A stretch of 64,000 bases of DNA from a virus. Shown here in pieces: positions 1-49,843 of the stretch (the stretch's first letter is position 1; the number at the start of each line of letters is the position of its first letter). The notes below the pieces were generated by a model. It searched no databases. It saw only the letters and a list, made by a program, of their open reading frames with translations, and was not told the origin of the DNA. The DNA lies in IMG/VR virus record IMGVR_UViG_3300048110_000147, positions 1 through 64,000 of that record. One strand, written 5' to 3'. The position numbers were made by a program, and so were the translations under genes.

Positions 1-16
1 TATATAGCATTGTCTG

Positions 17-883
17 TCAAGTGATAAAATCAGATAGGTCGGACACAAAGGTTTGTTGATAGTGATCGCGACATAGGTCCATGACCCTGTTCCGACGTTT
101 CCAGTTGATCTGGGTATCGAGCAACAATGACTCGAACAGTTTGTCTATTTGAGAACCCAACTGTAAATTGATGTGAGGTTTTACATTACCAAAGAGTTTT
201 TCGATCTCGTACTCTTCGCGTATGATGTTCTTCTGGTGTGGCGTGTTCAGTTCTTGCCATGAGAACTGCATAAGATAGTCACGGACTCGTTGGTCACCCC
301 ACGGAGCAATATGGATCTTACCGTACATCTCCGCAACTTTGTTGTGGGTCGCAATACCAGCACAGTGTCCATTGAGATACGCTTCACGGAACTCATTCCA
401 GTTGACGCGTTTGTCTCCACTCTCTTTACACCACTTCACATAGTTACGCTTCTTTTTAAAAGAAGAGTACCGTTGGGTTGCTTTACGAGACGCACCAAAG
501 TATGCATCTGCGACCCATCCAGTGACCGAATACTTTTCGACCATGGCGTCATAAACATAAAGAAAAGGATATGCGGCTGCCTCGAACTCAGACTTTTTAC
601 GACAACCTAGTTCGACCAGTCGTTGGAAGTCTTGTTTGATGTTTGCGGTTGGTATGATGACCGGAGTGAATTCCCACCCCATAGTATCTGCTACGTCACG
701 TGCCTTGACAAAGTCATAGGACTCATGATTGTCCAGAGTGAAACTGTATGCGTGGACCTTGCGTCCAGCATCCTGTGCGCTGATACCTACAGATATAGAA
801 TCGACACCGCCGGACAGTAGTAGTCCGACAGTGTCGTCTGTTACGTGAGTATCGATGTGATCAGTAATAAAGTCTCGTATCAT
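17..883 (-). CDS. PP-loop adenylyltransferase, asparagine synthetase C-terminal-like (no glutaminase domain)
   Basis: LLLSGGVDS PP-loop; GWVADAYFG resembles the AsnB SGEGADELFG motif; C-terminal APWGD...KNIIRE. Confidence 0.7.
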   Translation of the reverse strand: MIRDFITDHIDTHVTDDTVGLLLSGGVDSISVGISAQDAGRKVHAYSFTLDNHESYDFVKARDVADTMGWEFTPVIIPTANIKQDFQRLVELGCRKKSEFEAAAYPFLYVYDAMVEKYSVTGWVADAYFGASRKATQRYSSFKKKRNYVKWCKESGDKRVNWNEFREAYLNGHCAGIATHNKVAEMYGKIHIAPWGDQRVRDYLMQFSWQELNTPHQKNIIREEYEIEKLFGNVKPHINLQLGSQIDKLFESLLLDTQINWKRRNRVMDLCRDHYQQTFVSDLSDFIT

Positions 884-891
884 GCATCTAC

Positions 892-2457
892 TTATGCGGC
901 GACTTCAAGTAACGTTTCACGTTCTGCGCGAAAGGACAGGTACTCATCAAAAGTGTACTTGTTAGACTTCTCATTGTTACATGAACCGCATAATATACGC
1001 AAGTTATCGGGAGTAGTAACACCACCCACATCGACTCCCCAAGAGTGAGGGATATCGTGGTCACCTTGAACTTCGTTTGCCTCTAAAGGAACTGAACAAG
1101 ATTCGCACTGACGATTGACTTCAACATAACGATTGTGGATATCTTGGTCACTGAACGTACGGAGACCATCTAATACCACAATACCGAACTCTTCGTAACG
1201 ACCAGCAAATCGTGTCATCATCTGAGAGATTGTGAATCGTGTCTTACTCAAGTGATTGTGCACACCCAAGTACTTACTGAATGCAGCAGAAATAGTCCAC
1301 TCATCGCTGCTGTCCTTGATCCACGCACCCAAGGTGTTGTCGCTCTTGATTTCCTCCAACATGTAAACCCACGCACGGGCGAATGCCTTTGGATCTCTCA
1401 CCACAAAGTTTTTTTGCTCTGATCGCAAAGCAGTGTCAATACTCATCAAGAATCGGGTGAGCGCAGTGAAGCTACCTTCGTTACGCTTTGCAGCCTTGAT
1501 CTTAGTCGATGGATACTCATCGTAAATACTTGCGATAATATCTAACATCTTTATACTCGACTTGAGTGCATTCTCAAACACGCGCTTCTCGCGGACGGTA
1601 TACTTACCTGAATCGATAATAGAACCTTGCTCAAACATTTCATCAAGCTCATCGTCGCCACACGCAGCTGCGGCATCACCGTTAATGTTCATCTTCAACA
1701 AGCGAGAGGTCACAATGTCATACTTCAAGCGACCCGGCGCGAAACCAATGAATTTCGAATCAAGAAACAATCGATGTGGAACAGTGTCTTGCTCATCGAT
1801 TAGGCGCGATGTGTTACGAACCGCCTCTGCGATAACATTCTCATCTAGTGTATTGCGATGCTCCGCACGTGAGTGGTTTGAACCAGCATTACGGTTACGC
1901 GTCTCAATCGCATCCATGTTTGGTGTAGAGTTGTGATAAACAGTGAATAGCAGTTCTTCCTCTAACCAACGGTTAAACGCAGCAGGATACGCCTCCAGAA
2001 TTTCTTCAGCAGTCATACTAGCGATAGTTGTCTCACCACCGTGGTCATTGACAAAGTATGCCTGATTAGACAACACGAACTGGTTACTCACGAACTCAGA
2101 GAAAGTTCGGCTGCGGTGACCACCGTCAGTAACACGTATTTGTAAACGCAGTTCACCGTCAGGTGTTGAGTAAACAGATACCGCAAGATTAGGTAAGTCA
2201 TTACCCGTGAAGAAGGTCTCTGTGATACCTTGCTTCTTAGTCACCTTGTTCACATCTGGGCGATTAGTCTTAATAGACTTTATCACATATCCAAAGTGAA
2301 TCAGTGCAAGGTACTCACGCACTGTAAGGATACGGCGTTCGCGAATACGGATACCGTTCTCATACTTGAATTGGTTGTTCGGTGAGATGTCGGTGAATTT
2401 TGTTAAAACCGCACCAACATCAACTTCTCTGACTAAACTATCAAATAAAATGGTCAT
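892..2457 (-). CDS. DUF262/ParB-like (GmrS-type) domain fused to C-terminal HNH endonuclease
   Basis: TDGGHRSRT resembles the DUF262 DGQQR motif; C-terminal CESC...DHDIPHSWG...TTPDNLRILCGSCNNEKSN is an HNH signature. Confidence 0.7.
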   Translation of the reverse strand: MTILFDSLVREVDVGAVLTKFTDISPNNQFKYENGIRIRERRILTVREYLALIHFGYVIKSIKTNRPDVNKVTKKQGITETFFTGNDLPNLAVSVYSTPDGELRLQIRVTDGGHRSRTFSEFVSNQFVLSNQAYFVNDHGGETTIASMTAEEILEAYPAAFNRWLEEELLFTVYHNSTPNMDAIETRNRNAGSNHSRAEHRNTLDENVIAEAVRNTSRLIDEQDTVPHRLFLDSKFIGFAPGRLKYDIVTSRLLKMNINGDAAAACGDDELDEMFEQGSIIDSGKYTVREKRVFENALKSSIKMLDIIASIYDEYPSTKIKAAKRNEGSFTALTRFLMSIDTALRSEQKNFVVRDPKAFARAWVYMLEEIKSDNTLGAWIKDSSDEWTISAAFSKYLGVHNHLSKTRFTISQMMTRFAGRYEEFGIVVLDGLRTFSDQDIHNRYVEVNRQCESCSVPLEANEVQGDHDIPHSWGVDVGGVTTPDNLRILCGSCNNEKSNKYTFDEYLSFRAERETLLEVAA

Positions 2458-2491
2458 AATAAATAATCTCTTACTATTAATTTATGTAGCT

Positions 2492-2521
2492 ATAGTAACA
2501 CATGTTTCTATAACATGTCAA
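2492..2521 (-). promoter_or_regulatory. sigma70-type early promoter with palindromic spacer
   Basis: TTGACA-N18-TACTAT with TGn extended -10; ACATGTT-N5-AACATGT in spacer. Confidence 0.8.
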
Positions 2522-2766
2522 GTGTTTTGCTCAATTATTTCCTTAATTTGTTTCTTGTTTAATTTCTTAAACTTACGTCCTTTAGTAGACCAAGATTTCT
2601 TAGGCGTATTAAAGAGCTGGAAAACTCCAGTACGACGTGGTACGTAACCGACAAGGTCTGTACCTTTACTCACGTAGATGTGGTTGGTGATATTCTCCTC
2701 ACCCCAATCGGTTATCTCTTCGCGCCACAGGAAACGACACGCTTCTTCAAGACTTATGATATTCAT
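2518..2766 (-). CDS. hypothetical protein
   Basis: 82 aa ORF in tightly packed minus-strand run. Confidence 0.6.
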   Translation of the reverse strand: MNIISLEEACRFLWREEITDWGEENITNHIYVSKGTDLVGYVPRRTGVFQLFNTPKKSWSTKGRKFKKLNKKQIKEIIEQNT

Positions 2767-2767
2767 A

Positions 2768-3148
2768 TTAAAACTCCATCGCGAGTTGTTGACCAGCAGA
2801 AATGTTGACGACCTTCATCATCTTCATCATGTTGCTGTTAAGATAGTGACGGTCCATTGGATTAGGACCAGTCGCAATGCTGTAGTAGTCAGCGTTACGT
2901 AGTGGATCGCCCGTAGGCAAGTCACGGTGAACAAACATCACCTCACCTTCTTGAACACCTTTACCATTTGTAAACTGGATGGTCTCGCCTACTTCAGCGT
3001 AGTCAGAACGATTAGTGAACTCACGCGCACTAGAAACATACAAAGCAGATGGGTTTGGATATGACTCCATATGGTCATATGCATCTTGGCGAGTCTCGAA
3101 CGGACCTGCCGCTCTCATGTTTTTGTAGTTTTTCATAACGTAGTACAT
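2768..3148 (-). CDS. hypothetical early protein
   Basis: Start MYYVMK after GAGAG RBS and promoter. Confidence 0.65.
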   Translation of the reverse strand: MYYVMKNYKNMRAAGPFETRQDAYDHMESYPNPSALYVSSAREFTNRSDYAEVGETIQFTNGKGVQEGEVMFVHRDLPTGDPLRNADYYSIATGPNPMDRHYLNSNMMKMMKVVNISAGQQLAMEF

Positions 3149-3181
3149 AATCAACTCTCTCTTTATCAATTCAATGTAAAC

Positions 3182-3211
3182 ATTATACCACATGTTTTTA
3201 CAACATGTCAA
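3182..3211 (-). promoter_or_regulatory. early promoter
   Basis: TTGACA-N18-TATAAT; same palindromic spacer. Confidence 0.85.
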
Positions 3212-3230
3212 GGCATTATGCTAAATTAAT

Positions 3231-3476
3231 TTACCAAACTTCATCGCCAGTGGTGCGGAATCGCAAAAGGGGGCGTAACTCTTGACCCAACTCACGAGTA
3301 GTCATGTTGTCTGCTTGACACAAACAAGTTTGGCTGCTGTGGAAGTCACGGAAAAACTGTTCATCGAGATCAGACTCGACGCAATCTTCAAGACTCCAGT
3401 CTGCGAACAAATCGTCTAGTAACATCTGGTTATCTTCGCTCATGTATCGTGTGTGGGAGTTGTATTCCAGTTCCAT
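3231..3476 (-). CDS. hypothetical acidic early protein
   Basis: 81 aa ORF, AGGAG RBS, own promoter. Confidence 0.6.
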   Translation of the reverse strand: MELEYNSHTRYMSEDNQMLLDDLFADWSLEDCVESDLDEQFFRDFHSSQTCLCQADNMTTRELGQELRPLLRFRTTGDEVW

Positions 3477-3510
3477 CTCTATCTCCTTGTTAACTCGACT
3501 TTATGTAGCT

Positions 3511-3573
3511 ATTATACCAAATTTTAAAAGAAAGTCAACACTTAATCGTGACTAATTTTAGGTAATAAGTCAC
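3511..3573 (-). promoter_or_regulatory. early promoter with upstream GTGACT-N14-AGTCAC palindrome
   Basis: TTGACT-N16-TATAAT; palindrome at 3548-3573. Confidence 0.7.
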
Positions 3574-4004
3574 ATTACCACTAGGGTGTCTACTAGGTTC
3601 ATTAGTACTGCTGTACCTGAGATAGCACTCCCTATCATGATTGCTTTGTCATTCCAACAATGACCAACATAAACCCATGCAGTAGCAGCAGACGCATAGC
3701 ATATCTGTCCCGCGATACTGAATCCTGCACTCATGGTGAACACTCCAACCACACCAAGTACAGTAGCACCCCACTTGACATAACTATCAATGGTACCCGT
3801 CGGTGTTGCTGGTTTCAGATCTTCGACTTCTAGTTGCAGTTCTTCCATCTCTTGTTTGAGACGTTTACGCTCGACATTAAGTTCCATAGCAAGTCTTCCT
3901 GCTTTGGACATCGTACTACCGGCAAACTCCTGTTTGACTTCCGGACTGATTTGACTTTCAACCTTTGCTACGCGCTGGTCTTCTTCAATAGAACTTTTAC
4001 TCAT
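3570..4004 (-). CDS. coiled-coil plus 3-TM membrane protein (related to 46547..46834)
   Basis: DSYVKWGAT...WVYVGHCWNDKAIMI similar to DWYLKWVAS...WTWVSVIWKDRALIM. Confidence 0.6.
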   Translation of the reverse strand: MSKSSIEEDQRVAKVESQISPEVKQEFAGSTMSKAGRLAMELNVERKRLKQEMEELQLEVEDLKPATPTGTIDSYVKWGATVLGVVGVFTMSAGFSIAGQICYASAATAWVYVGHCWNDKAIMIGSAISGTAVLMNLVDTLVVM

Positions 4005-4300
4005 TATCTTCGCATACTCGCAAGGTCTTTCATCTGTTGTTCATCAATCACGGGGATTGCATTGGACTTGTGCATAGTGCCGATACCCTTGACTAGGGTT
4101 CCGGTGTAGTTCATTATTTCTTTCTTTTCGGTACTGAAAGTACCCGAATCGTGAGATTTATAAACTGGAGTCTCCCTTCGATAAGGTTCACTCTTTACTT
4201 CCATAGGCTGGAATGTGGGGGTAGGTTTCTTCTTGGTAGACCAAGCATTGTACGTCTTCTTTCTACCAGTAGTAGTATGTCGCATTGAACCGTGTATCAT
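4004..4300 (-). CDS. conserved T4-like hypothetical protein
   Basis: YTGTLVKGIGTMHKSNAIPV motif. Confidence 0.65.
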   Translation of the reverse strand: MIHGSMRHTTTGRKKTYNAWSTKKKPTPTFQPMEVKSEPYRRETPVYKSHDSGTFSTEKKEIMNYTGTLVKGIGTMHKSNAIPVIDEQQMKDLASMRR

Positions 4301-4632
4301 AATAACTCTGCCGCTATTTCATTTTCTTTTAAAAAGTTATTCAACGCTCGTTTCGCTTTCTTATCACCATAGATGATGGAATCAGGGATGCGTACATTGT
4401 AACGATAGGAATATAACTTACAAGCACTTTCCCAAGGGGTTTTGCTAGTACGCAATATCTTCTCTTCATCAAGTAGAGAATCGAGCTTCTCCCAAGGAGA
4501 GTAAGAACTCTCTGGTAGACGATGTTTACTTACACTTTCTAAGATCGAGTTGATCACACCCTCATCATCATCGAAAGGGGTTTCTTTGGCAAAGGACAAA
4601 GCATATCCTAGTCCTTGTTCATAATCCATCAT
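4297..4632 (-). CDS. hypothetical early protein
   Basis: ORF downstream of promoter at 4673-4702 (TTGACA-N18-TATAAT). Confidence 0.6.
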   Translation of the reverse strand: MMDYEQGLGYALSFAKETPFDDDEGVINSILESVSKHRLPESSYSPWEKLDSLLDEEKILRTSKTPWESACKLYSYRYNVRIPDSIIYGDKKAKRALNNFLKENEIAAELL

Positions 4633-4824
4633 AATATAACTCTCAAGTTGTTTCATTAAATATACAATGTGTATTATACGACACATTCTAGGGTGCTGTC
4701 AAGTGTACAATCCTTTTACATTCATCAAATCTTCGAATACTAGTAAGTACACCGAACAGGTCATCATCTGCCTTCTGGGCAAACCCTAACCAAAGTATCA
4801 ATAAGATACGTAGTACCCAAACAC

Positions 4825-5373
4825 TTATCTCTCTAGGAACCACTCAGGAACCTCGCGGTTAGTCCACTTGGCAAAGTACTTTTTCTCTTCACGGTAATAC
4901 TTGCGGTACCCTTCGGTAACGACAGTCTCCTTACAGTGGTCTGGCATACATTGTGGCATGACCGTCTCTGGTCCTACCTGATTGATATTACGTGGAGAGA
5001 ACCACAGAAGTCCAGACAACTTCTCATAGGTAGCATGGATGCGCCCGTATCGGTGAGTGTACTCTTTTGCACATGCGACAAAGTGATCGTACAACCATCG
5101 GTAATTCTTGTTGTTCTCACGACACCATATAGCAGATGGGTGGTTTTTGTGTGCAACTTTGTATAGCATATTCTCACGTGCTTCGCCATCGACTATATAA
5201 TGGTCTACCATACGTTTTCCGGACTTGGAAGGTCGACGTTCGACAGACCCGTCAAGAACCCGATGCGCAGTCGAGAGTAGCTGACCGTACTCGGTAACCA
5301 TCTTGACTACATGCTTGTCACACATCATCTGTGCAGATATCACTGGATCATCATCTAATCTAAAAATATTCAT
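4825..5373 (-). CDS. pyrimidine-dimer DNA glycosylase/endonuclease V-like protein
   Basis: MNIF.LD.DP..SA...CDKHVVKM..E..QLLSTAH; HKNHPSAIWCR; YR.YYR.EK. Confidence 0.7.
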   Translation of the reverse strand: MNIFRLDDDPVISAQMMCDKHVVKMVTEYGQLLSTAHRVLDGSVERRPSKSGKRMVDHYIVDGEARENMLYKVAHKNHPSAIWCRENNKNYRWLYDHFVACAKEYTHRYGRIHATYEKLSGLLWFSPRNINQVGPETVMPQCMPDHCKETVVTEGYRKYYREEKKYFAKWTNREVPEWFLER

Positions 5374-5425
5374 ATAGTATATCCCCTATTGAGTTAAGAT
5401 ATTATATACGAAAAAACGGCATCTG

Positions 5426-5872
5426 TCAATCTTTTTTAGAAATTAATTGTTTTCTCTGTAGCAGTGATGATTTTGACATCTTCCAGATAACAAGTAGCGG
5501 GTCATACATCCACAGAAACTTCTTGTGTCCTGCTCTTTCCATAGTTTCCCACGGTACGAATGCCTTGGACCAATTGTCAATGTACAGGTTTCCTATCCGT
5601 AGAACAACGTGACCTTCGCCTTTCTTGGTGATGACTCTACGCAACTGTACTTGCATTGTGATGACATTGATCCAGAAGTTGATCATTGATTTACCACTCA
5701 TCAACCATAGTAGCGTAATGGCGTAGTCTTCACAGTCTCCCTCGTACGGTGGTTCCTTTAGGATGACCCATCGATCAAACCCATGTCTTTCACTATCGTA
5801 TACATACTTCCACGTCTCGTTCAAATGAGCGACGTGCTCTTCCTTGTTTAATAAGTCTAACATATTTTTCAT
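5426..5872 (-). CDS. transglutaminase-like cysteine peptidase (BTLCP/C93, LapG-like)
   Basis: GDCEDYA (Cys), GEGHVVL (His), YIDN (Asp) triad; late promoter at 5893-5900. Confidence 0.75.
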   Translation of the reverse strand: MKNMLDLLNKEEHVAHLNETWKYVYDSERHGFDRWVILKEPPYEGDCEDYAITLLWLMSGKSMINFWINVITMQVQLRRVITKKGEGHVVLRIGNLYIDNWSKAFVPWETMERAGHKKFLWMYDPLLVIWKMSKSSLLQRKQLISKKD

Positions 5873-5892
5873 CCATTGAATAATACTTTTTT

Positions 5893-5924
5893 TATTTATA
5901 TGGAGAGTCAAAAGAGTATAAATA
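5893..5924. promoter_or_regulatory. back-to-back T4 late promoters (TATAAATA on both strands)
   Basis: tatttata 5893-5900 (minus) and tataaata 5917-5924 (plus). Confidence 0.75.
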
Positions 5925-37351: not shown

Positions 37352-37722
37352 TTTTTATCGCCTTTGCCTCGGTTGCGTTTACGTTCCATCTCTTGCTTTC
37401 GAACGACTTTTATAAGCTTACGAGCATTACGATCTATTCTTGCTTGTATGGCAGGCTTCTCCATTCTCTTCTCGATATCTTTCTTACGAGAGAATGACAT
37501 CTCACCCTTATCTTGACCTTTAGTAATCTTTGAGACTACTGCCTTACGTGCTTGTTTACGTGCACGTTTCTTCAAGGTGTCCATAGATGCAGTTTTTCTT
37601 TCTGCACGTTTTCGCGCCATGGCGATTCGTGCCTTATTCTTTTTCATTCGCATCGCGAGTTTTCGACGTTGTGCCATGTCGAGTACTTCCGATACCATAT
37701 CTTTAAATGACAACATAGTCAT
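37348..37722 (-). CDS. highly basic putative internal head protein
   Basis: MLSFKDMVSE start; K/R-rich. Confidence 0.7.
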   Translation of the reverse strand: MTMLSFKDMVSEVLDMAQRRKLAMRMKKNKARIAMARKRAERKTASMDTLKKRARKQARKAVVSKITKGQDKGEMSFSRKKDIEKRMEKPAIQARIDRNARKLIKVVRKQEMERKRNRGKGDKK

Positions 37723-49165: not shown

Positions 49166-49843
49166 TCAACTACCTTTTAGATTTTTTCGTTCTGCTGCTA
49201 TCCACTTTTCTGCTTTCTTAGAGACAGGTTTGTCAGTGAATTTCTTTGCATCGCGGTATGCAGTCAAAGTTTCTTTCTCGTAGTTCTTACCTTGAGAGTT
49301 ATCGACCACCAAGAAGTTAGGTTTACCGAACATGCGCTGGAATTTACCAATGTTACGTTGCACTAACTTCCAATATTCAGTTACACCCTTCTCTCCTAGA
49401 GTACGTGGTCGCATTGCGTCACGAGCGATAGCAGTTTCGAGATCGGTGTTAACGAAAATCATTGCGACATCATAACCCATCTCTTTTAGTTTCTTTGCTT
49501 GAGTTGCGACCTTGTCTGGATCTTTACCAGTACCATCGATCACTAATCCAAGACGACCTTTTAAGTATCTTGCTTCTTTGGTACCAGTAAGTTTTTTAGC
49601 CTTACCACGAACCTCTTGTCCCTTTGGTGAGAAGATGTTGTCTGGAGTCATGTCCATACCAATCTTCTTCATTCCAGCCTCGAACGCATCGTCGGAGTTT
49701 ACAACCTTATAACCAAAGGACTGTAATCCAGTTTTACCGACAATGAAAGATTTACCAGAGCCAGGACCACCCGCAAGGAAGATCGCCTTGAAGATTGCTG
49801 GATCATTTACACCTTCGTCGAGAAAGGACTTAAAAGATATCAT
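49166..49843 (-). CDS. P-loop kinase (zeta toxin/AAA_33/Pnk-like), putative internal protein
   Basis: AGGPGSGKS, NSDD, LVIDGTG, AIARD..R.R lid; MISFKSFLDE start. Confidence 0.85.
   Translation of the reverse strand: MISFKSFLDEGVNDPAIFKAIFLAGGPGSGKSFIVGKTGLQSFGYKVVNSDDAFEAGMKKIGMDMTPDNIFSPKGQEVRGKAKKLTGTKEARYLKGRLGLVIDGTGKDPDKVATQAKKLKEMGYDVAMIFVNTDLETAIARDAMRPRTLGEKGVTEYWKLVQRNIGKFQRMFGKPNFLVVDNSQGKNYEKETLTAYRDAKKFTDKPVSKKAEKWIAAERKNLKGS

What the first reader, a model, noticed from the sequence alone, without database searches (positions are those of the whole stretch)
17..2521. Phage-borne DUF262-HNH nuclease paired with a stand-alone PP-loop enzyme
Seen: a 521-aa DUF262/ParB-like (DGGHR) plus HNH protein under its own early promoter, followed 8 bp later by an AsnB-synthetase-like PP-loop protein with no glutaminase domain. 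Known: DUF262+HNH architectures are modification-sensing restriction enzymes (GmrSD, SspE), and PP-loop enzymes (DndC/SspD, QueC/QatC) partner defence and modification systems. Inference: a two-gene modify/restrict module for host DNA destruction or for excluding competing modified phages.
Basis: partly seen in the sequence, partly recalled or inferred. Interest (0 to 1): 0.7.

Follow-up and report, generated by a model that had tools for sequence, protein, structure and literature searches.

The report
Nuclease gene beside phage DNA-hypermodification ligase
The two genes are real, but the "PP-loop enzyme" is a relative of CmoY, the recently described phage enzyme that decorates carboxymethyl-cytosine in DNA, and the gene in front of it is a swappable GmrSD-like nuclease of unknown role; the rest of the modification cluster (cmoX, cmoA) is cut off by the end of the contig.

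Summary
A 521-aa ORF (892-2457, minus strand) lies behind a sigma-70-like promoter, and a 288-aa PP-loop ORF (17-883) follows 8 nt later.

The PP-loop protein is 39% identical over its full length (E 2e-64) to SpCmoY of Synechococcus phage S-B43. SpCmoY is an ATP-dependent ligase that joins glycine to 5-carboxymethylcytosine in DNA (Yang et al. 2025, PMC12783734). It is not DndC- or QueC-like.

The contig ends 16 nt after this gene. In relatives with 93-97% nucleotide identity in the flanks, cmoX and cmoA follow directly. The unit is therefore nuclease-cmoY-cmoX-cmoA, not a two-gene module.

The 521-aa protein has a ParB/DUF262 (GmrSD_N)-type fold plus a canonical HNH domain. This rests on structure. 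Pfam finds only the HNH.

Its family keeps the DGGHR motif and the HNH catalytic residues in 60 members. cmoY is the next gene in 17 of 18 linked loci. However, the nuclease is exchanged independently of cmoY (25% against 97% identity), and it is absent from most cmo clusters.

The same slot also holds a different nuclease family, GIY-YIG-like plus ParB-like.

Best guess: a nuclease that reads DNA modification state. A homing endonuclease is a serious rival. Function is untested.

The parts
17..883 (-). cmoY-like gene (P0002, 288 aa): a stand-alone Asn-synthetase-type PP-loop amide ligase.
   Evidence: Pfam Asn_synthase E 2.2e-13. 39% identity, E 2e-64, full length, to the characterised SpCmoY of phage S-B43. 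phrog_26038 E 6.8e-30.
797..814 (-). PP-loop motif SGGVDS (residues 24-29 of P0002).
   Evidence: Translation. The motif is invariant in the alignment of 13 CmoY-like proteins.
884..891 (-). 8-nt spacer (GTAGATGC) between the nuclease gene's stop codon and the cmoY start codon. The two genes are probably co-transcribed.
   Evidence: In relatives the same junction measures -32 to +24 nt, mostly a 4-nt overlap.
892..2457 (-). P0001 (521 aa): a ParB/DUF262-fold domain, a helical middle part and an HNH nuclease.
1858..2343 (-). ParB/Srx / DUF262 (GmrSD_N)-like N-terminal domain (residues about 39-200).
   Evidence: SspE Z 7.1 (146 aa, rmsd 3.9), PadC Z 6.4 and KorB Z 5.1. Atlas structural neighbours carry PF03235.
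2113..2127 (-). DGGHR motif (residues 111-115), the counterpart of DGQQR in DUF262 and DGQHR in DndB.
   Evidence: Invariant in 60 of 60 family members, as are R66, K74, R117, N190 and R214.
913..1152 (-). HNH (His-Me finger) nuclease domain (residues 436-515). The catalytic His467 lies at 1057-1059.
   Evidence: Pfam HNH E 8.9e-8. Cas9 HNH Z 8.1, rmsd 2.4, 73 aa. H467, G478 and G479 are invariant; N485 and N494 are present in 59 of 60.
2492..2521 (-). Sigma-70-like (early-type) promoter in front of P0001.
   Evidence: TTGACA, 18 nt, TACTAT with TG. The swapped cassette in relatives starts at window position 2508, inside this element.
1..16 (.). End of the contig, 16 nt past the cmoY stop codon. 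This is the assembly break that removes cmoX and cmoA.
   Evidence: The window is the first 64 kb of a 96.9-kb linear fragment with CheckV completeness of 56%. Window 1-889 aligns to L004 10883-9995 at 96.5%. In L004, cmoX starts 50 nt after cmoY.

Best explanation
The two genes are the first half of a four-gene unit, nuclease-cmoY-cmoX-cmoA, in an uncultured marine T4-like phage. The contig ends before cmoX and cmoA.

P0002 is a CmoY-type ATP-dependent amide ligase. CmoA makes carboxy-SAM. CmoX puts a carboxymethyl group on C5 of cytosine in DNA. CmoY then adenylates that carboxylate through its PP-loop and joins an amine to it. The amine is glycine in the characterised enzyme.

P0001 is a nuclease with the general build of the GmrSD/BrxU/SspE enzymes: a ParB/DUF262-fold nucleotide-binding domain, a helical linker and a His-Me-finger nuclease. 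Here the nuclease is a classical HNH rather than DUF1524.

P0001 is transcribed early with cmoY. It most likely uses the ParB-fold domain to read or bind DNA in a nucleotide-dependent way, and the HNH to nick or cut DNA that lacks the phage's own cytosine modification (host DNA or a co-infecting phage). The incoming, already modified phage genome would be spared.

Shown here: the gene structure, the homology of P0002 to CmoY, the cmoX/cmoA continuation in near-identical relatives, the fold of P0001, the conservation of its motifs, its recurrent adjacency to cmoY, and its cassette-like exchange.

Inferred: any enzymatic activity, the amine used, and above all the target and purpose of the nuclease.
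For: P0002 and the cmo cluster:
- P0002 against SpCmoY: 39% identity, E 2e-64, end to end. SpCmoY activity is published (PMC12783734).
- Five IMG/VR relatives share 82-97% nucleotide identity with the window. All have cmoX (64-65% to SpCmoX, with the SPPC motif and R350) and cmoA (52-53%) directly after cmoY.

P0001 fold and conservation:
- Fold matches: BrxU, SspE, ParB-like proteins and Cas9 HNH. Atlas structural neighbours carry GmrSD_N plus HNH.
- 60 non-redundant family members keep DGGHR, R66, K74, R117 and H467, and 59 of 60 keep N485 and N494.

Linkage to cmoY:
- 23 of 80 family loci carry cmoY. In 17 of 18 loci where both genes are intact, cmoY is the very next gene, at -32 to +24 nt, in four different orders of cmoX and cmoA.
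- Cmo-linked members fall in at least four clades.

Parallel case in the same slot:
- A second, unrelated occupant of the slot also combines a nuclease-like domain (GIY-YIG-like: I-TevI Z 5.7, 5hmC-specific PD-T4-3 Z 4.8) with a ParB/Srx-like domain (PadC Z 7.4; Foldseek ParB-CDP probability 0.97-0.99).
- This matches the unexplained ParBc association reported for CmoX contigs.
Against: - No activity was tested.
- The nuclease is dispensable for the pathway. S-B43 and S-B05 lack it, and SpCmoX plus SpCmoY suffice in E. coli and in vitro.
- Only about 11 of 63 cmoY-anchored loci have this family upstream.
- About 55 of 80 family loci show no cmo genes.
- The nuclease does not co-evolve with cmoY (Spearman 0.18; 25% against 97% identity in the window compared with L081).
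- One relative carries a frameshifted copy.
- CmoX acts after replication and would also modify host DNA. Telling self from host would therefore have to rely on timing.
- The fold Z-scores (7-8) lie in the range the tool calls common. Pfam GmrSD_N does not hit P0001 itself.
Confidence: 0.5

Rival explanations
1. P0001 is a free-standing homing endonuclease, a selfish mobile gene of the kind that T4 mob (HNH) and seg (GIY-YIG) genes represent. It happens to have the site in front of cmoY as its preferred insertion point. It would cut the nuclease-less allele in mixed infections and be copied in, with no role in DNA modification.
For: - Distribution among cmoY loci is sporadic, about 11 of 63.
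- The replacement is gene-sized, with boundaries at window 890 and 2508, between flanks that are 93-97% identical.
- L009 and L011 share only this gene (76% nt) and nothing around it.
- One relative has a frameshifted copy.
- The same slot holds members of both classical homing-nuclease classes, HNH and GIY-YIG-like.
- Some loci have the slot almost empty (L131-L133).
Against: - At 450-550 aa the proteins are large for such enzymes.
- They carry a ParB/DUF262-fold domain whose nucleotide-binding-type motif is invariant in 60 members. This domain is not a known homing-endonuclease module.
- The same fold recurs in the unrelated GIY-YIG-like occupant, and possibly in nuclease-less occupants. That points to a link with the modification genes rather than to mere mobility.
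- Close relatives carry a different allele rather than an empty site.
Confidence: 0.25
2. P0001 is a true Type IV (modification-dependent) enzyme like GmrSD or BrxU. It attacks DNA carrying other modifications (for example hydroxymethyl- or glycosyl-cytosine of competing phages) and serves superinfection exclusion. Its place next to cmoY is a matter of shared early expression.
For: - The best full-length structural analogues are BrxU, a DndI-system chain and SspE.
- Atlas neighbours are annotated GmrSD_N plus HNH.
- Allele exchange between near-identical phages fits an arms race.
- Many family members sit in phages without cmo genes.
Against: - There is no DUF1524 domain.
- Pfam GmrSD_N is not reached by P0001.
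- This reading does not explain the tight, often overlapping junction with cmoY in four gene orders and at least four clades.
Confidence: 0.1
3. P0001 is an accessory factor of the modification machinery, like DndB or DpdB. In this reading a ParB-fold NTPase binds or slides on DNA and helps or regulates CmoX and CmoY, and the HNH domain nicks DNA or merely binds it.
For: - 5 of 60 members give weak DndB hits (best E 0.009).
- DGGHR resembles the DGQHR motif of DndB (own knowledge).
- ParB domains are often fused to DNA methyltransferases, and ParBc proteins co-occur with CmoX (PMC12783734).
- Other occupants of the slot may be ParB-like without a nuclease (weak leads).
Against: - SpCmoX and SpCmoY work without such a factor.
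- An allele only 25% identical pairs with a 97% identical CmoY, which argues against a specific protein complex.
- The HNH catalytic His and Asn residues are kept throughout the family.
Confidence: 0.1

Closest known systems
CmoY (SpCmoY, A0A514ABJ0 / QDH50619.1) of the CmoA-CmoX-CmoY pathway of Synechococcus phage S-B43 (Yang et al., Nat Commun 2025, PMC12783734)
   Same: P0002 has the same length class and the same stand-alone Asn-synthetase PP-loop domain with SGGxDS. It is 39% identical end to end. In near-identical relatives the gene sits beside cmoX (SPPC motif and R350 present) and cmoA.
   Different: The amine substrate of P0002 is unknown. The gene order differs: nuclease-cmoY-cmoX-cmoA here, cmoA-cmoY-cmoX in S-B43. 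S-B43 has no nuclease gene in the cluster. cmoX and cmoA are not on this contig.
GmrSD-family Type IV restriction enzymes (BrxU, PDB 7P9K) and SspE (PDB 6JIV)
   Same: P0001 has the same overall build: an N-terminal ParB/DUF262-fold domain with a DGxxR-type motif, a helical linker and a C-terminal His-Me-finger nuclease. These are its best full-length structural analogues.
   Different: P0001 is encoded by a lytic phage, not by a bacterial defence island. Its nuclease is a classical HNH with a zinc-binding CxxC...CxxC, not DUF1524. Pfam GmrSD_N is not reached by P0001. No modification dependence is known. It sits inside a DNA-hypermodification cluster.
Free-standing homing endonucleases of T4-like phages (Mob HNH and Seg GIY-YIG enzymes)
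   Same: P0001 is a single nuclease gene wedged between conserved genes. It is sporadic, exchanged as a cassette, and found in a different context elsewhere.
   Different: P0001 is about twice as large. It carries a conserved ParB/DUF262-fold domain instead of the usual small DNA-binding modules. Alleles replace each other rather than alternating with an empty site in the closest relatives.
ParBc-domain proteins reported in CmoX contigs (1,660 sequences, function unknown; PMC12783734, Fig. 8c)
   Same: These are ParB-fold proteins encoded next to cmo genes.
   Different: Those proteins were found with PF02195. P0001 and the GIY-YIG-like/ParB-like slot protein do not reach PF02195 here. Whether they are the same proteins could not be checked.

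Membership tests
CmoY (5cxmC-DNA amide ligase) | Stand-alone Asn-synthetase-type PP-loop domain (SGGxDS) without a glutaminase domain. | tested here: met
   Pfam Asn_synthase E 2.2e-13 on residues 3-158. SGGVDS at residues 24-29. No GATase hit. 288 aa.
CmoY (5cxmC-DNA amide ligase) | Full-length sequence homology to the characterised SpCmoY. | tested here: met
   39% identity, E 2e-64, residues 1-274 against 1-261. 35 columns are invariant across 13 CmoY-like proteins.
CmoY (5cxmC-DNA amide ligase) | Encoded next to CmoX (C5-MTase fold with SPPC and R350) and CmoA. | tested here: inconclusive
   Not on this contig: tblastn found nothing, but the contig ends 16 nt after cmoY. All five relatives at 82-97% nucleotide identity have the feature.
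CmoY (5cxmC-DNA amide ligase) | ATP-dependent ligation of glycine (or another amine) to 5cxmC in DNA. | not testable with these tools
   Needs LC-MS of nucleosides after co-expression with CmoA and CmoX.
GmrSD / BrxU / SspE-type enzymes | N-terminal DUF262 (PF03235) domain with a DGQQR-type nucleotide-binding motif. | tested here: inconclusive
   PF03235 does not hit P0001. 8 of 60 family members do, best E 3.6e-4. Fold matches: BrxU Z 7.5, SspE Z 7.1, Atlas TM 0.71-0.77 to PF03235 clusters. DGGHR is invariant.
GmrSD / BrxU / SspE-type enzymes | C-terminal DUF1524 (GmrD) nuclease domain. | tested here: not met
   The C-terminus is Pfam HNH (PF01844), E 8.9e-8, with CxxC...CxxC. There is no DUF1524 hit. 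It belongs to the same His-Me-finger superfamily but is a different family.
GmrSD / BrxU / SspE-type enzymes | Cleavage that depends on, or senses, DNA modification; NTP dependence. | not testable with these tools
   Needs a biochemical assay.
Free-standing homing endonuclease | Sporadic presence and cassette-like mobility between otherwise collinear genomes. | tested here: met
   About 11 of 63 cmoY loci carry the family. There is an allele swap between flanks of 93-97% identity. The gene alone is shared by L009 and L011.
Free-standing homing endonuclease | Cleaves a specific site in the nuclease-less allele near its insertion point. | not testable with these tools
   Needs a cleavage assay or a mixed infection.
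DndB / DpdB (DGQHR ParB-like accessory proteins) | DndB-type domain (PF14072). | tested here: inconclusive
   No hit for P0001. 5 of 60 members hit weakly, best E 0.009.
   QueC E 8e-4 at 19.4 bits, below the 22-bit cut-off, and only over the PP-loop. TIGR00364 scores 21.8 bits against a cut-off of 150. There is no PADLOC hit.

The most novel reading that the evidence does not exclude
Marine T4-like phages pair their cytosine hypermodification (carboxymethyl-C and its amide) with their own restriction-like enzyme. This would be a family of ParB-fold nucleases, with either an HNH or a GIY-YIG cutting domain, that read whether DNA carries the phage's mark and destroy DNA that does not (host or rival phage). 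Because nuclease and modification genes are adjacent, the unit would behave as a selfish restriction-hypermodification cassette that spreads by recombination in mixed infections. That would also explain the unexplained ParB-domain association of cmo clusters.
Probability: 0.3. Interest if true: 0.8.

Novelty: new variant of a known kind. Interest (0 to 1): 0.55.

Why it matters
The CmoA/CmoX/CmoY pathway was described only in December 2025. Its authors noted that ParB-domain proteins accompany it for unknown reasons. This window and its relatives show three things:

- The place directly in front of cmoY is a variable slot.
- That slot repeatedly holds nucleases built on a ParB-type fold, from at least two unrelated nuclease classes.
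- These nucleases are exchanged between near-identical phages.

If they read the modification state of DNA, phages would carry their own restriction partner for a hypermodified base. Such enzymes could also become reagents that distinguish 5-carboxymethylcytosine derivatives. If they are homing enzymes, the finding is an ordinary case of selfish genes at a hot spot. A few simple E. coli experiments would separate the two.

Tried and rejected
- **Phage GenBank search.** Megablast of window 1-3500 and tblastn of P0001 against phage GenBank records found nothing. Only P0002 had relatives there.
- **DndC/SspD/QueC reading of P0002.** Rejected: the hits cover only the PP-loop and fall below the cut-offs. 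PADLOC found nothing for P0002 and only HNH-level hits for P0001.
- **cmoA/cmoX in the own contig.** None found. This is explained by truncation and is not evidence of absence.
- **PF03235 in the own genome.** Searched at E up to 10; no match.
- **Profile searches against PDB sequences.** Both family profiles find only the HNH domain.
- **The look-up of encoding contigs.** The contexts of the closest homologues, P0003-P0013, could therefore not be read. IMG/VR loci were used instead.
- **Other slot occupants.** hhalign against the P0001 family shows no relation, except for one 496-aa pair (97.7%) that lacks DGGHR. Pfam and PHROGs give nothing for them.
- **P0001 as a capsid-targeted protein.** Its N-terminus, MTILFDSLVRE, resembles this phage's head-loading tags. 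The stretch is not kept in homologues of 53% identity and is modelled as part of the fold, so the idea was dropped to a passing note.
- **A second copy of the family in the contig.** None found.
Full report
**Observation.** The window is the first 64 kb of a 96.9-kb linear viral fragment. CheckV estimates it at 56% complete. Nearly all genes are on the minus strand. Earlier notes of this scan describe it as an uncultured marine T4-like phage.

The two ORFs are as described. P0001 lies at 892-2457 (-) and has 521 aa. P0002 lies at 17-883 (-) and has 288 aa. They are 8 nt apart. A sigma-70-like element (TTGACA, 18 nt, TACTAT, TG-extended) sits at 2521-2492. Such matches are not enriched over shuffles in this region, so the promoter is plausible, not proven.

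**The PP-loop protein.** Pfam gives Asn_synthase (E 2.2e-13) over the N-terminal half, starting at residue 3. There is no glutaminase domain. The QueC and NAD-synthase hits are weak, cover only the PP-loop and fall below their cut-offs.

Its relatives in phage GenBank are annotated "asparagine synthase" in Synechococcus phages S-B05 and S-B43 and in Erwinia and Dickeya jumbo phages. In S-B05 and S-B43 the gene lies between a methyltransferase-domain gene and a DNA-cytosine methyltransferase.

That trio is the published CmoA-CmoY-CmoX pathway (PMC12783734):
- CmoA makes carboxy-SAM.
- CmoX carboxymethylates C5 of cytosine at GC sites.
- CmoY ligates glycine to the carboxyl group, using ATP. This was shown in E. 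coli and in vitro.

P0002 is 39% identical to the characterised SpCmoY over its whole length (E 2e-64). The PP-loop SGGVDS is conserved.

**The missing half of the cluster.** tblastn finds no cmoA or cmoX in the contig. However, the contig stops 16 nt after the cmoY stop codon.

Five IMG/VR contigs carry cmoY at 87-97% amino-acid identity and share 82-97% nucleotide identity with the first 12 kb of the window. In four of them cmoY is followed, after about 50 nt, by cmoX and then cmoA. In the fifth the order is cmoX-cmoA-methyltransferase-nuclease-cmoY-DNA polymerase.
- cmoX is 64-65% identical to SpCmoX and hits Pfam DNA_methylase at 7.7e-53. It carries the SPPC motif and the Arg350 equivalent that the paper uses as its signature.
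- cmoA is 52-53% identical to the phage CmoA.

I therefore read the window as the truncated start of nuclease-cmoY-cmoX-cmoA. I put the chance that this phage has cmoX and cmoA at about 0.9.

**The 521-aa protein.** By sequence only the HNH is detected (Pfam E 8.9e-8, residues 451-500). Pfam GmrSD_N/DUF262 is not reached.

An AlphaFold2 model built on 14 homologues is confident (pLDDT 86, pTM 0.73).
- The C-terminus (residues 436-515) matches Cas9 HNH domains: Z 8.1, rmsd 2.4, 73 aa.
- Residues 39-424 align to the GmrSD-family enzyme BrxU: Z 7.5, 281 aa, with a large rmsd because the domains are arranged differently.
- Residues 30-194 align to SspE (Z 7.1, 146 aa, rmsd 3.9) and to ParB-like proteins and sulfiredoxins (Z 4.7-6.4).
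- Foldseek ranks BrxU, a DndI-system chain, ParB-CDP and SspE at the top, all with weak E-values.
- The ESM Atlas's own model of this protein has neighbours at TM 0.71-0.77 in phage clusters. One cluster is 99% PF03235 and 95% PF01844.
- Scanning 60 family members, 40 hit HNH, 8 hit GmrSD_N (best E 3.6e-4) and 5 hit DndB (best E 0.009).

The nuclease is HNH, not the DUF1524 of true GmrSD.

**Family and conservation.** The big protein database holds only 11 relatives at E<=1e-3. A profile scan of IMG/VR gave at least 98 loci, of which 80 were kept.

In 60 non-redundant full-length members the following are invariant: R66, K74, D111-G-G-H-R115, R117, N190, R214, H467, G478 and G479. N485 and N494 are kept in 59 of 60. 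The zinc-binding cysteines occur only in the P0001 subclade. Both the ParB-type motif and the His-Me-finger catalytic core are thus under strong constraint, which speaks for an active, nucleotide-binding nuclease.

**Linkage to cmoY.**
- Of the 80 family loci, 23 have cmoY, 20 have cmoX and 19 have cmoA.
- Where both genes are intact, cmoY is the very next gene in 17 of 18 loci. The distances run from -32 to +24 nt and are mostly a 4-nt overlap.
- This holds in four different arrangements of cmoX and cmoA.
- On a maximum-likelihood tree the cmo-linked members fall into at least four well-supported clades, interleaved with unlinked ones: 5 changes, against a shuffled mean of 15.7, and 0 of 500 shuffles as low.
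- The unlinked members sit in the replication module, next to sliding-clamp, AAA_5, glycosyltransferase-like, epimerase and UDP-glucose-dehydrogenase genes.

**The nuclease is an exchangeable cassette.**
- Between the window and its closest relatives the flanks are 93-97% identical. The segment 890-2508, exactly the gene plus its -10 region, is replaced by a homologue only 21-25% identical.
- Identities of the nuclease and of CmoY are almost uncorrelated across loci (Spearman 0.18).
- L009 and L011 share this gene at 76% nucleotide identity and nothing else.
- One relative has the allele broken by two indels.
- Starting from cmoY instead (more than 416 loci, best 80 kept), only about 11 of 63 loci with enough upstream DNA have this family in front of cmoY.

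**What else occupies the slot**.
- The commonest other occupant has 472-565 aa and 15 members. Modelled at pLDDT 75, it shows a GIY-YIG-like N-terminal domain (I-TevI Z 5.7 over 82 of 92 residues; the 5hmC-specific enzyme PD-T4-3 Z 4.8). It also shows a ParB/Srx-like domain (PadC Z 7.4, sulfiredoxin Z 7.3, KorB Z 7.0; Foldseek ParB-CDP probability 0.97-0.99) and has a GGNHRxRA-like consensus.
- Another family has a DG...GR.R..A consensus.
- A third has only a weak Atlas lead to a ParB_N-containing cluster.
- The slot can also hold a glycosyltransferase-looking protein, a second Asn-synthetase-like ligase, or serine hydroxymethyltransferase. It can also be nearly empty.

So a ParB-type fold, often joined to a nuclease of one class or another, recurs in front of cmoY. 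This fits the ParBc association that the Cmo paper reported and left unexplained.

**Interpretation.** I am confident in the CmoY assignment (about 0.85 for the family). The amine substrate is open.

For P0001 the evidence supports an active nuclease with a nucleotide-binding ParB/DUF262-type domain, tied by position to a DNA-hypermodification cluster, yet dispensable, mobile and fast-swapping.

The reading I favour (about 0.4-0.45) is a nuclease that discriminates DNA by modification state and spares the phage's own modified genome. This would be analogous in logic to SspE with SspABCD, or to T4's cytosine-specific nucleases with hmC. Such a unit would also behave selfishly.

The main rival (about 0.25) is a plain homing endonuclease at a hot spot. 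A true Type IV exclusion enzyme and a DndB/DpdB-like accessory factor share the remainder. None of these can be separated without experiments.

**Verdict.** The PP-loop gene is a new member of a just-described family. The nuclease partner, and the variable ParB-fold nuclease slot it reveals, are a new variant of known kinds and have a clear experimental test.

Noticed in passing
L151:563-1708 (+), directly upstream of cmoY: A full-length serine hydroxymethyltransferase (Pfam SHMT, E 1e-148) occupies the slot in front of cmoY in one marine phage contig. SHMT makes glycine, the amine used by the characterised CmoY. This may be a supply gene.
   Followed up: no
L155:1092-1982 and L156:5114-6004 (+): A second, divergent Asn-synthetase-like PP-loop protein (296 aa, Pfam E 2.6e-9) lies in tandem just upstream of cmoY. 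This hints at two successive or alternative amide ligations.
   Followed up: no
L143:171-1595 and 13 relatives (alignment A4): This is the commonest other occupant of the slot before cmoY. It is a 472-565-aa protein modelled as a GIY-YIG-like domain, a ParB/Srx-like domain and a C-terminal alpha/beta domain. It has no Pfam or PHROG match.
   Followed up: partly
L006:8617-10004 (= L092): In this 137-kb relative the nuclease allele is 98.9% identical in nucleotides to that of L004, but it is split by two indels into ORFs of 179, 149 and 117 aa. It is either a decaying gene or an assembly error.
   Followed up: partly
L113:2386-3876 and L117:4518-6008: These 496-aa proteins in the same slot are distant homologues of the P0001 family (hhalign probability 97.7%). 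They lack the DGGHR motif.
   Followed up: partly
window 2425-2457 (-), N-terminus of P0001: The first 11 residues, MTILFDSLVRE, resemble the short head-loading tags at the start of this phage's late proteins (for example MTMLSFKDMVSE at 37722 and MISFKSFLDE at 49843). The stretch is not conserved in homologues of 53% identity, so this is probably chance.
   Followed up: partly
L036:4803-6565 and L043:9531-11293: In phages without cmo genes, the P0001-family gene is followed by an NAD-dependent epimerase and a UDP-glucose-dehydrogenase-like gene. The same kind of uronic-acid genes was noted earlier at 55-62 kb of this window's genome.
   Followed up: no
L002 and L003 (Erwinia and Dickeya jumbo phages), locus positions 876-5753: The CmoY-like gene of Alexandravirus jumbo phages sits next to a CmoA-like methyltransferase (about 29% identity to the marine CmoA) and a DUF1611 protein. 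No CmoX homologue was detected in the 10.7 kb read. This may be a different carboxylate-handle pathway.
   Followed up: no
window 4825-5373 (-) and 5426-5911 (-): The neighbouring early genes include a pyrimidine-dimer DNA glycosylase (denV-like, Pfam E 1.5e-6) and a transglutaminase-like cysteine protease (BTLCP, E 1.1e-6).
   Followed up: no
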